A DNA stretch of 64,000 nucleotides from Escherichia phage LQ5. Where the stretch lies: the sequence record OR677401. One strand, given 5' to 3'. A program made the translations under genes and the position numbers. Below are positions 2,564 to 3,256 of this stretch, piece after piece. Positions within the stretch are counted from its first letter, which is position 1. Each line of letters starts with the position of its first letter. The notes beneath the pieces were generated by a model that made no database searches, was not told the DNA's origin, and worked only from the letters and a program-made list of their open reading frames with translations.

Positions 2564-2801
2564 ACAAACCGTTGAACAGAAACTGCAGTCTGAAATCGTT
2601 ATCCTTAAATCCCGTATCCTTGATACTCAGGACCATGTCCAGCGCGTTAAAGCTGATTGCGACCTCCTTACTAAAGTACTGGGTGAGATTGCTGCAGTAG
2701 TTGGCGTTACCGGTGATTCTGTTAAAATCGAAGACCTAGTTGAAGCCGTTAAAGCCCTGGTTCCAGAAGCTTCTGACGAAGAATATTCTGAAGAAGAATA
2801 A
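2556..2801 (+). CDS. 57A: tail-fibre assembly chaperone 57A
   Basis: 81 aa; N-terminus [22 protein letters not shown] matches recalled gp57A; position after gene 1. Confidence 0.8.
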
Positions 2802-3256
2802 TGAAAACCGAAGATTTTGCTCAAGGTCTATACGTTGCTGCAAAATTCTCTGAATTAACTTTAGATGCGCTGGAAAATCTTCAGCGCACTTTAAAGGTTC
2901 CTAATCCAGTTCCTCGTGAAAAATTCCATTCTACAATCTGCTATTCAAGAGTCAACGTTCCATACACCGTTGCATCCGGAAGTTTTGAAGTTGCTTCGGC
3001 CGGACATCTTGAAGTATGGAAACACGGTGATTCTCCTGTCCTGGTCTTGGTTCTCAATTCAGAGTATCTTAAATGCCGCCATCAGTATGCTCGTACCTTA
3101 GGTGCTACGCACGATTTTGATGATTACACCCCTCATATCACCCTGTCTTATAATGTGGGACCCCTTAGCTTTAGTGGAGATGTCCAGATTCCTGTTGTTT
3201 TAGACAGAGAATATAAAGAACCCTTGAAGCTCGACTGGGCTGAAGACCTAAAATAA
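2801..3256 (+). CDS. 57B: 57B-like 2H phosphoesterase (Acb1-type anti-CBASS cyclic-nucleotide phosphodiesterase)
   Basis: 151 aa; two H-x-T/S motifs ([16 protein letters not shown]) of the 2H fold; T4 57B position. Confidence 0.7.

What the first reader, a model, noticed from the sequence alone, without database searches (positions are those of the whole stretch)
2801..3256. 57B homolog has the 2H-phosphoesterase signature of Acb1 anti-CBASS nucleases
Two H-x-T/S motifs (FHSTICYS and PHITLSYN) are spaced as in 2H phosphoesterases. T4 57B has been reported as Acb1, which degrades cyclic oligonucleotide signals of CBASS. The gene is intact here with a coupled start after 57A.
Basis: partly seen in the sequence, partly recalled or inferred. 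Interest (0 to 1): 0.45.

Follow-up and report, generated by a model that had tools for sequence, protein, structure and literature searches.

The report
Intact T4-type Acb1 anti-CBASS nuclease gene

Summary
The ORF at 2801..3256 (+), 151 aa, is real. Its ATG overlaps the 57A stop codon (TAATG). It holds both motifs, H43-S-T45 and H112-I-T114.

The motif pair alone is weak evidence: 6.6% of shuffles of the same protein give such a pair. Homology carries the case:
- Pfam PF23474 "Acb1" matches over its full length (197 bits against a cut-off of 27; E=1e-58).
- The solved Acb1 of Erwinia phage FBB1 (PDB 7T26/7T27) matches at E=2e-58.
- T4 57B/Acb1 is 85% identical with no gaps.
- All nine residues that Hobbs et al. 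2022 name as catalytic or substrate-binding are identical, and the C-terminal lid is retained.
- Gene order (3, 1, 57A, 57B, internal-protein genes, trna.4/.3/.2) is the same as in T4.
- Strong purifying selection is evident. It is the second most conserved of 28 T4 orthologs compared (85% against a median of 59%).

The host genome is a Dhakavirus (98.9% nt identity to phage QL01). Public records call this gene "hypothetical protein" or, wrongly, "RNA ligase".

Verdict: observation confirmed, interpretation supported, already known, low interest. Enzyme activity was not tested. The same window also carries an Acb2 (vs.4) sponge homolog at 18018..18296.

The parts
2801..3256 (+). acb1 (T4 gene 57B ortholog), 151 aa plus stop: a 2H-phosphoesterase-type anti-CBASS cyclic-oligonucleotide nuclease
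   Evidence: ORF. Pfam PF23474 Acb1 at 197.4 bits, residues 8-149 on model positions 1-144/144. PDB 7T26 at E=1.7e-58. 85% identity and no gaps to T4 Acb1.
2799..2803 (+). TAATG junction: the stop codon of 57A overlaps the start codon of acb1 by one base. Translational coupling is inferred.
   Evidence: Sequence. It is preceded by the purine-rich GAAGAAGAA (2790-2798) but by no clear GGAG. Abutting or overlapping 57A/57B junctions are annotated in T4 and distant relatives.
2927..2935 (+). First catalytic H-x-T motif, H43-S44-T45 (T4 H44/T46)
   Evidence: H and T are invariant in 12 homologs. The role is defined in PMC9117128.
3134..3142 (+). Second catalytic H-x-T motif, H112-I113-T114 (T4 H113/T115)
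   Evidence: Invariant in 12 homologs, together with P111. The role is defined in PMC9117128.
3230..3253 (+). C-terminal lid segment, residues 144-151 (LDWAEDLK), including W146 (T4 W147). E140 (T4 E141, the adenine N6 contact) lies just upstream at nt 3218-3220.
   Evidence: It differs from the T4 lid LDWADDLK only by E for D. The lid function comes from the 7T27 structure description.
2556..2801 (+). Gene 57A (tail-fibre assembly chaperone), the immediately upstream gene to which acb1 is coupled
   Evidence: Pfam PF17594 GP57 at 96 bits. PHROG 1002. 60% identity to T4 gp57A.
1802..2563 (+). Gene 1 (dNMP kinase), an upstream member of the same co-oriented gene string 3-1-57A-57B
   Evidence: Pfam PF21448 DNMK at 300.7 bits. 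Gene order is identical to T4 and QL01.

Best explanation
The gene encodes a functional ortholog of phage T4 Acb1 (gene 57B) in a Dhakavirus, a T4-like member of Straboviridae/Tevenvirinae.

Mechanism, carried over from T4 and FBB1 Acb1: the small 2H-phosphoesterase binds 3'-5'-linked cyclic di- and trinucleotides that contain at least one adenosine (3'3'-cGAMP, cAA, cUA, cAAA) in a U-shaped pocket. The bases stack on Y11, W73, F106 and W146. E140 reads adenine N6. The C-terminal lid (residues ~144-151) closes over the ligand. The H43/T45/H112/T114 tetrad catalyses metal-independent acid-base cleavage 3' of adenosine, through a 2',3'-cyclic phosphate intermediate, to a linear 3'-phosphate product. 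Removing the second messenger keeps CBASS effectors (nucleases, phospholipases and others) inactive, so the infected cell does not undergo abortive-infection death before the phage completes its cycle.

The gene is probably translated by coupling to 57A and transcribed together with genes 3, 1 and 57A.

Shown here: the ORF, homology, residue identity, synteny and purifying selection. Inferred: catalysis, substrate range, timing of expression and the in vivo anti-CBASS effect for this specific protein.
For: Sequence and family evidence:
- Pfam Acb1 PF23474 matches at E=1.2e-58, 197.4 bits against a cut-off of 27, over the full-length model.
- PDB 7T26/7T27 Acb1 matches at E=1.7e-58 over residues 9-148. 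A family profile gives E=2.8e-66.
- T4 Acb1 is 85% identical with no gaps.
- All nine named functional residues are identical (against the definitions in PMC9117128).
- H, T, H, T and Y11 are invariant, and E140 is at least 90% conserved, across 12 homologs down to 30% identity.
- Synteny with T4 and QL01 holds.

Selection:
- Window against QL01: 4 synonymous and 1 nonsynonymous difference, omega 0.07.
- Window against SHP1: 8 synonymous and 0 nonsynonymous differences.
- Window against T4: pS 0.76 (saturated) and pN 0.14.
- It is the second most conserved of 28 T4 orthologs, 84.8% against a median of 59%.

Experimental basis for the family:
- Nine further homologs were all active.
- T4 lacking acb1 loses more than 300-fold plating on CBASS hosts.
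- A transposon screen shows 57B is needed only when CBASS is present.
Against: - There is no biochemical or genetic test of this protein or of any named Dhakavirus ortholog. I could not recover from the text which nine homologs were assayed.
- 23 substitutions separate it from T4, including F42 next to the catalytic His and a changed loop at 75-80 right after the stacking W73. These could shift kinetics or substrate preference.
- No recognisable T4-type late or middle promoter lies on the + strand within the 2.8 kb upstream, so expression is inferred from synteny only.
- A single-sequence AlphaFold model was uninformative (pLDDT 34.7), so the fold rests on sequence homology to the crystal structure.
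Confidence: 0.93

Rival explanations
1. It is a LigT/ThpR-like RNA 2',3'-cyclic phosphodiesterase or 2'-5' RNA ligase that acts on broken RNA (for example in tRNA repair), as the RefSeq and PHROG label 'RNA ligase' implies, rather than on immune cyclic oligonucleotides.
For: The PHROG 755 description is 'RNA ligase'. RefSeq records of QL01, T4 and many others name the gene 'RNA ligase', and one Acinetobacter phage record says 'putative RNA 2',3'-cyclic phosphodiesterase'. It shares the 2H superfamily chemistry, and the second step of the Acb1 reaction is itself hydrolysis of a 2',3'-cyclic phosphate. The gene lies close to the tRNA gene cluster.
Against: The Pfam 2_5_RNA_ligase2 hit is only 13.9 bits, below its 27-bit cut-off and covering only residues 68-122, whereas Acb1 scores 197 bits. 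No NCBIfam model, LigT/ThpR or any other, matches at E up to 1 (families). The T4 ortholog was identified by activity-guided fractionation as the cGAMP-degrading activity, and its deletion has a CBASS-specific phenotype with normal growth otherwise. The label is an automated legacy name, not an experimental result.
Confidence: 0.03
2. It is an Acb1-fold enzyme whose biologically relevant target in this phage's hosts is not CBASS, or whose specificity has shifted. Examples would be mainly cA3 from type III CRISPR-Cas or other cA3-using systems, or a narrower substrate range that avoids triggering decoy-based guards such as Panoptes.
For: Acb1 cleaves cAAA, and the authors suggest it may counter cA3-signalling type III CRISPR. 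Acb1 activity is what type I and II Panoptes sense, and phages escape by inactivating acb1, so there is selection on its specificity. Substitutions cluster in loop 75-80 beside the stacking W73.
Against: All residues known to contact the bases and the adenine-specific E140 are identical to T4. The loop at 75-80 is variable and carries an indel across active family members. All ten family members assayed cleaved both cGAMP and cAAA. The enterobacterial hosts of the related phages are of the same kind as the hosts in which CBASS operons were tested.
Confidence: 0.04
3. It is a decaying or catalytically dead copy: an intact-looking ORF without function, as seen in relatives such as Bas43 that carry a disrupted acb1.
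For: Disruption of acb1 occurs naturally in Tevenvirinae and is selected by Panoptes. The gene is dispensable without CBASS.
Against: The ORF is full length and matches the whole Pfam model. The catalytic tetrad and binding residues are all intact. The protein is 100% identical to that of phage SHP1 despite 8 synonymous differences, and omega against QL01 is 0.07. 1461 of 1470 phage records with a match cover at least 80% of the protein.
Confidence: 0.01

Closest known systems
Phage T4 Acb1 (gene 57B, NP_049750.1), Hobbs et al. 2022 (PMC9117128)
   Same: 85% identical over the whole length with no gaps. The HxT/HxT tetrad, the four stacking aromatics, the adenine-contact Glu and the C-terminal lid are all identical. 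Its position after 57A and before the internal-protein genes is the same.
   Different: It is one residue shorter at the N-terminus, because T4 starts MM. There are 23 substitutions, concentrated at the N-terminus, at 56-58 and in loop 75-80. The junction with 57A overlaps by 1 nt (TAATG) instead of 4 nt. The downstream genes are Ip8/Ip9-type internal proteins rather than ipI.
Erwinia phage FBB1 Acb1, crystal structures 7T26 (apo) and 7T27 (3'3'-cGAMP complex)
   Same: It aligns over residues 9-148 at E=1.7e-58 and about 65% identity. The catalytic motifs HxT...PHITLSYN and the VVLDREY...W lid region are conserved.
   Different: There is a one-residue indel in the loop after the W73 position. 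FBB1 has Phe where the window and T4 have Trp73, and Tyr where they have Phe106; these are aromatic-for-aromatic replacements.
Other Acb1 structures 9Q2G/9Q2Y (165-aa 'Anti-CBASS protein Acb1')
   Same: Same family by profile (E=3e-13 and 2e-11). The HxT motifs align.
   Different: They are only distantly related to the window protein (E=0.007 in the single-sequence search) and are longer.
LigT/ThpR-type 2H phosphoesterases (Pfam 2_5_RNA_ligase2, PF13563)
   Same: Same superfamily logic: two H-x-T/S motifs and metal-independent transesterification or hydrolysis via a 2',3'-cyclic phosphate (and established knowledge of the 2H superfamily).
   Different: The hit is sub-threshold (13.9 bits against 27, partial). 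The substrate is RNA ends rather than cyclic oligonucleotide immune signals. This is the source of the misleading 'RNA ligase' annotation.
Acb2 (T4 Vs.4), the cyclic-nucleotide sponge
   Same: It has the same purpose, removing CBASS signals, and is encoded in the same window at 18018..18296.
   Different: It is an unrelated fold and mechanism that sequesters rather than hydrolyses (PMC10312549 abstract).

Membership tests
Acb1 (Pfam PF23474; Hobbs et al. 2022) | Significant full-length sequence match to the curated family model, above the gathering score | tested here: met
   197.4 bits against a cut-off of 27, E=1.2e-58, protein residues 8-149 on model positions 1-144/144.
Acb1 (Pfam PF23474; Hobbs et al. 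2022) | Active-site HxT/HxT tetrad (T4 H44, T46, H113, T115) | tested here: met
   H43, T45, H112 and T114 are identical in an ungapped alignment to T4. They are invariant in 12 diverse homologs.
Acb1 (Pfam PF23474; Hobbs et al. 2022) | Base-stacking aromatics (T4 Y12, W74, F107, W147) and the adenine-N6 contact (E141) | tested here: met
   Y11, W73, F106, W146 and E140 are all identical to T4. Y11 is invariant and E140 is at least 90% conserved in the 12-sequence alignment; positions 73 and 106 are Trp/Phe or Phe/Tyr in the rows read by eye.
Acb1 (Pfam PF23474; Hobbs et al. 2022) | C-terminal lid that closes over the ligand (residues 145-152 in the paper's numbering) | tested here: met
   The segment is present and nearly identical to T4: LDWAEDLK against LDWADDLK. 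That it closes over the ligand is inferred from 7T27.
Acb1 (Pfam PF23474; Hobbs et al. 2022) | Compact 2H phosphoesterase fold | tested here: met
   Met by sequence homology to the solved structure 7T26: E=1.7e-58, 140 of 151 residues aligned, one 1-residue indel. The independent test by structure prediction was uninformative (single-sequence AlphaFold, pLDDT 34.7), so no fold search was run.
Acb1 (Pfam PF23474; Hobbs et al. 2022) | Metal-independent cleavage of 3'3'-cGAMP, cAAA and other A-containing 3'-5' cyclic oligonucleotides; no cleavage of cGG, cA4 or 3'2'-cGAMP | not testable with these tools
   Needs recombinant protein and TLC/HPLC assays. Shown for T4 Acb1 and nine homologs.
Acb1 (Pfam PF23474; Hobbs et al. 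2022) | Protects the phage from CBASS in vivo | not testable with these tools
   Shown for T4 by deletion (more than 300-fold defect) and by transposon screen. Not known for this phage.
T4-type 57B locus (orthology, not only homology) | Conserved position: 3 - 1 - 57A - 57B - internal protein genes - trna.4/.3/.2 | tested here: met
   Window ORFs and their Pfam/PHROG hits. T4 and QL01 annotation. tblastn of T4 proteins onto the window.
LigT/ThpR 2'-5' RNA ligase family (PF13563), considered because of the database label 'RNA ligase' | Match to the family model above the gathering score | tested here: not met
   13.9 bits against a cut-off of 27, E=0.056, residues 68-122 only. No NCBIfam model matches.

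The most novel reading that the evidence does not exclude
The unusually strong conservation of this small accessory gene (second of 28 T4 orthologs, 85% against a median of 59%) combines with substitutions concentrated in loop 75-80 next to the stacking Trp73 and at F42 beside the catalytic His. Together these could mark a lineage-specific tuning of substrate range. One example would be sparing the decoy nucleotides that Panoptes-type guard systems monitor while still destroying CBASS signals. Another would be a second, conserved role beyond CBASS evasion. Nothing here excludes this, but nothing specifically supports it either: every known ligand-contacting residue is unchanged.
Probability: 0.05. 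Interest if true: 0.5.

Novelty: already known. Interest (0 to 1): 0.1.

Why it matters
Its value is practical rather than conceptual.

- It corrects the annotation. The identical or near-identical proteins in GenBank and RefSeq (SHP1 ASJ79331.1 'hypothetical protein'; QL01 YP_009202875.1 'RNA ligase') should read Acb1, anti-CBASS cyclic-oligonucleotide phosphodiesterase.
- It predicts host-range behaviour. With an intact acb1 and an acb2 homolog, this Dhakavirus should resist many CBASS operons that signal with A-containing 3'-5' cyclic di- or trinucleotides. By the same token it should be vulnerable to Panoptes-type guard systems that sense loss of cyclic nucleotides (PMC13577387). That matters when choosing therapeutic phages.

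It opens no new question.

Tried and rejected
1. Single-sequence AlphaFold2 model: pLDDT 34.7 and pTM 0.26, which is useless. No fold search was run on it. A deep alignment could only have been supplied through the 13-CPU-hour protein search, which I judged unnecessary given 65-85% identity to a crystallised and a biochemically characterised member.
2. Motif statistics: the two-HxT/S pattern alone occurs in 6.6% of shuffles, so I rejected it as sufficient evidence on its own.
3. Promoters. The sigma-70-type scan, the T4 late box TATAAATA and the MotA-box pattern gave nothing convincing on the + strand upstream of 57B within the window. The only strong promoter-like sites (TTTACA-16-TACTAT with TG) lie downstream at 3269-3296 and 3836-3863 and serve the following genes.
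4. NCBIfam: no model matches, so there is no independent curated name.
5. I tried to learn which nine Acb1 homologs were assayed by Hobbs et al.. The names are only in a figure and could not be recovered from the text.
6. The 'RNA ligase'/LigT reading was rejected on the sub-threshold Pfam score and the experimental literature.
7. The pseudogene or inactive-copy reading was rejected on the intact residues and omega of about 0.07.

Full report
**Observation.** The window holds an ORF from ATG 2801 to TAA 3254-3256 on the + strand, encoding 151 aa.
- Its start codon shares one base with the stop codon of the preceding ORF (TAATG, 2799-2803).
- The protein contains FHSTICYS (H43-S44-T45; nt 2927-2935) and PHITLSYN (H112-I113-T114; nt 3134-3142).
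- These are the only two H-x-[ST] motifs among its six histidines.

**Is the motif more than chance?**
- Two such motifs 50-90 residues apart appear in 6.6% of 20,000 shuffles of this protein, and in 2 of 80 ORFs of at least 100 aa in the window.
- The motif pair on its own is therefore weak evidence, and the case has to be made by homology.

**What it is.**
- Pfam-A gives a full-length match to PF23474, "Anti-CBASS protein Acb1": 197.4 bits against a gathering score of 27, E=1.2e-58, residues 8-149 on model positions 1-144 of 144.
- The only other 2H-family hit, 2_5_RNA_ligase2, is sub-threshold at 13.9 bits.
- Among solved structures the best match is 7T26/7T27, Acb1 of Erwinia phage FBB1, at E=1.7e-58 over residues 9-148 with a single one-residue indel. 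A profile of 12 homologs raises this to E=2.8e-66.
- I fetched T4 itself. The window protein is 85% identical (128/151) to T4 57B/Acb1 with no gaps, with window residue i matching T4 residue i+1.

**Family-defining residues.** Hobbs et al. 2022 (PMC9117128) identify T4 57B as Acb1 by activity-guided fractionation and define its functional residues:
- the HxT/HxT tetrad H44, T46, H113, T115;
- the stacking residues Y12, W74, F107, W147;
- the adenine-N6 contact E141;
- a C-terminal lid.

All nine named residues are identical here: Y11, H43, T45, W73, F106, H112, T114, E140, W146. The lid differs from T4 by one conservative change, LDWAEDLK against LDWADDLK. I aligned 12 homologs from E. coli, Erwinia, Klebsiella, Serratia, Acinetobacter, Aeromonas, Vibrio and Salicola phages, reaching down to 30% identity. 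In that alignment both His, both Thr and Y11 are invariant, and E140 is at least 90% conserved.

**Context.**
- The genome is a T4-like Dhakavirus. Nucleotides 1800-3600 are 98.9% identical to Escherichia phage QL01 (taxonomy).
- The protein is 100% identical to a "hypothetical protein" of Salmonella phage SHP1.
- Gene order is tail completion gene 3 (1212..1802), dNMP kinase gene 1 (1802..2563), 57A (2556..2801), 57B (2801..3256), two internal-protein genes (3334..3558 and 3560..3832), then trna.4/.3/.2 homologs. This matches T4 and QL01.
- The abutting or overlapping 57A/57B junction recurs in T4 and in distant relatives. This is consistent with conserved translational coupling, which is an inference.
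- I found no canonical T4 late box or MotA-type middle promoter on the + strand in the 2.8 kb upstream. Co-transcription with 3-1-57A is therefore only inferred.
- In T4 the gene is expressed in the middle/late period, and activity appears about 15 min after infection.

**Selection.**
- Against QL01 the gene has 4 synonymous and 1 nonsynonymous difference (omega 0.07).
- Against SHP1 it has 8 synonymous and 0 nonsynonymous differences.
- Against T4, synonymous sites are saturated (pS 0.76) while pN is 0.14.
- Among 28 T4 proteins from the corresponding region that have a counterpart in the window, 57B is the second most conserved: 84.8% against a median of 59%. Its neighbours 57A and gene 1 are 60% and 51%.
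- This is a functional gene under strong constraint, not a decaying copy. The point is worth stating because natural acb1 nonsense mutants exist in Tevenvirinae and are selected by Panoptes defence (PMC13577387).

**Mechanism (inferred by orthology).**
- The enzyme binds A-containing 3'-5' cyclic di- and trinucleotides. It strains the adenosine so that its 2'-OH attacks the 3'-5' bond.
- This prevents activation of CBASS effectors. In T4, loss of the gene costs more than 300-fold plating on CBASS hosts and nothing otherwise.

**Rivals.**
- *"RNA ligase".* This label in PHROGs and RefSeq reflects superfamily resemblance to LigT. It is not supported by the sub-threshold Pfam score, the absence of any NCBIfam hit, or the experimental literature.
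- *Shifted substrate range.* This cannot be excluded, because substitutions cluster in loop 75-80 beside W73 and at F42. However, all known contact residues are unchanged, and that loop is variable among active members.
- *Inactive copy.* This is contradicted by the intact residues and by purifying selection.

**Novelty and score.**
- The family, its mechanism, its structure and this exact orthologous locus are already described, and a curated Pfam model exists.
- The sequence itself is already in public phage records, though poorly named.
- The finding is correct and ordinary: already known, interest about 0.1.
- Its practical value is annotation correction and prediction of CBASS resistance and Panoptes sensitivity for this phage.

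**Not done.**
- No enzymatic or genetic test was possible.
- The single-sequence AlphaFold model was uninformative (pLDDT 34.7), so no fold search was run.

Noticed in passing
window 18018..18296 (+): A 92-aa ORF is a homolog of T4 Vs.4/Acb2, the cyclic-nucleotide sponge. It is 63% identical to T4 Vs.4 by tblastn and matches Pfam PF24729 Acb2_Tad1_hairpin at 57.7 bits. The phage therefore carries both known T4 anti-CBASS genes, a nuclease and a sponge.
   Followed up: partly
window 2801..3253 compared with 1802..2545 and 2556..2765: Acb1 is far more conserved relative to T4 (84.8%) than its neighbours gene 1 (50.8%) and 57A (60%), and ranks second of 28 orthologs (median 59%). Synonymous sites are saturated, so this reflects constraint rather than recent transfer.
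   Followed up: partly
window 15755..16168 (+): The denV (endonuclease V) homolog is 97% identical in protein to T4, a strong outlier against the 59% median for the region. This suggests recent exchange between Tequatrovirus and Dhakavirus lineages.
   Followed up: no
window 5288..5953 (+), flanked by tRNA-Met 5173..5246 and tRNA-Arg 5959..6033: A GIY-YIG/NUMOD3 homing-endonuclease gene, 75.6% identical to T4 segB, sits inside a reduced tRNA cluster of 2 tRNAs, where T4 has 8. Its position is the same as segB in T4.
   Followed up: partly
window 464..1129 (+): A 221-aa ORF lies upstream of gene 3. It has no Pfam hit at E<=0.01, but QL01 annotates a 'homing endonuclease' between genes 2 and 3, just upstream of its gene 3. 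T4 has no gene there. It is probably a mobile endonuclease insertion.
   Followed up: no
window 3269..3296 and 3836..3863 (+): Two near-identical promoter-like sites, TTTACA-16 nt-TACTAT with an extended -10 TG, stand just before the internal-protein genes and before the trna.4-like ORF. They look like T4-type early promoters. The first overlaps a 9-bp inverted repeat, GGTCTATAG...CTATAGACC.
   Followed up: no
PDB 8HDS chain A (cyanophage Pam3 portal protein), residues ~489-615; not in the window: The C-terminal part of this 621-aa portal protein matches the Acb1 family profile (E=3.5e-9) and carries HVTIAYS and HISLS motifs aligned to the two catalytic motifs. It appears to be an Acb1-like 2H domain fused to a portal protein.
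   Followed up: no
window 6337..6891 (+): A 184-aa ORF gives a full-length match to Pfam DUF7338 (212.9 bits). It is preceded by an exact T4 late-promoter box, TATAAATA, at 6301..6308. Its function is unknown.
   Followed up: no
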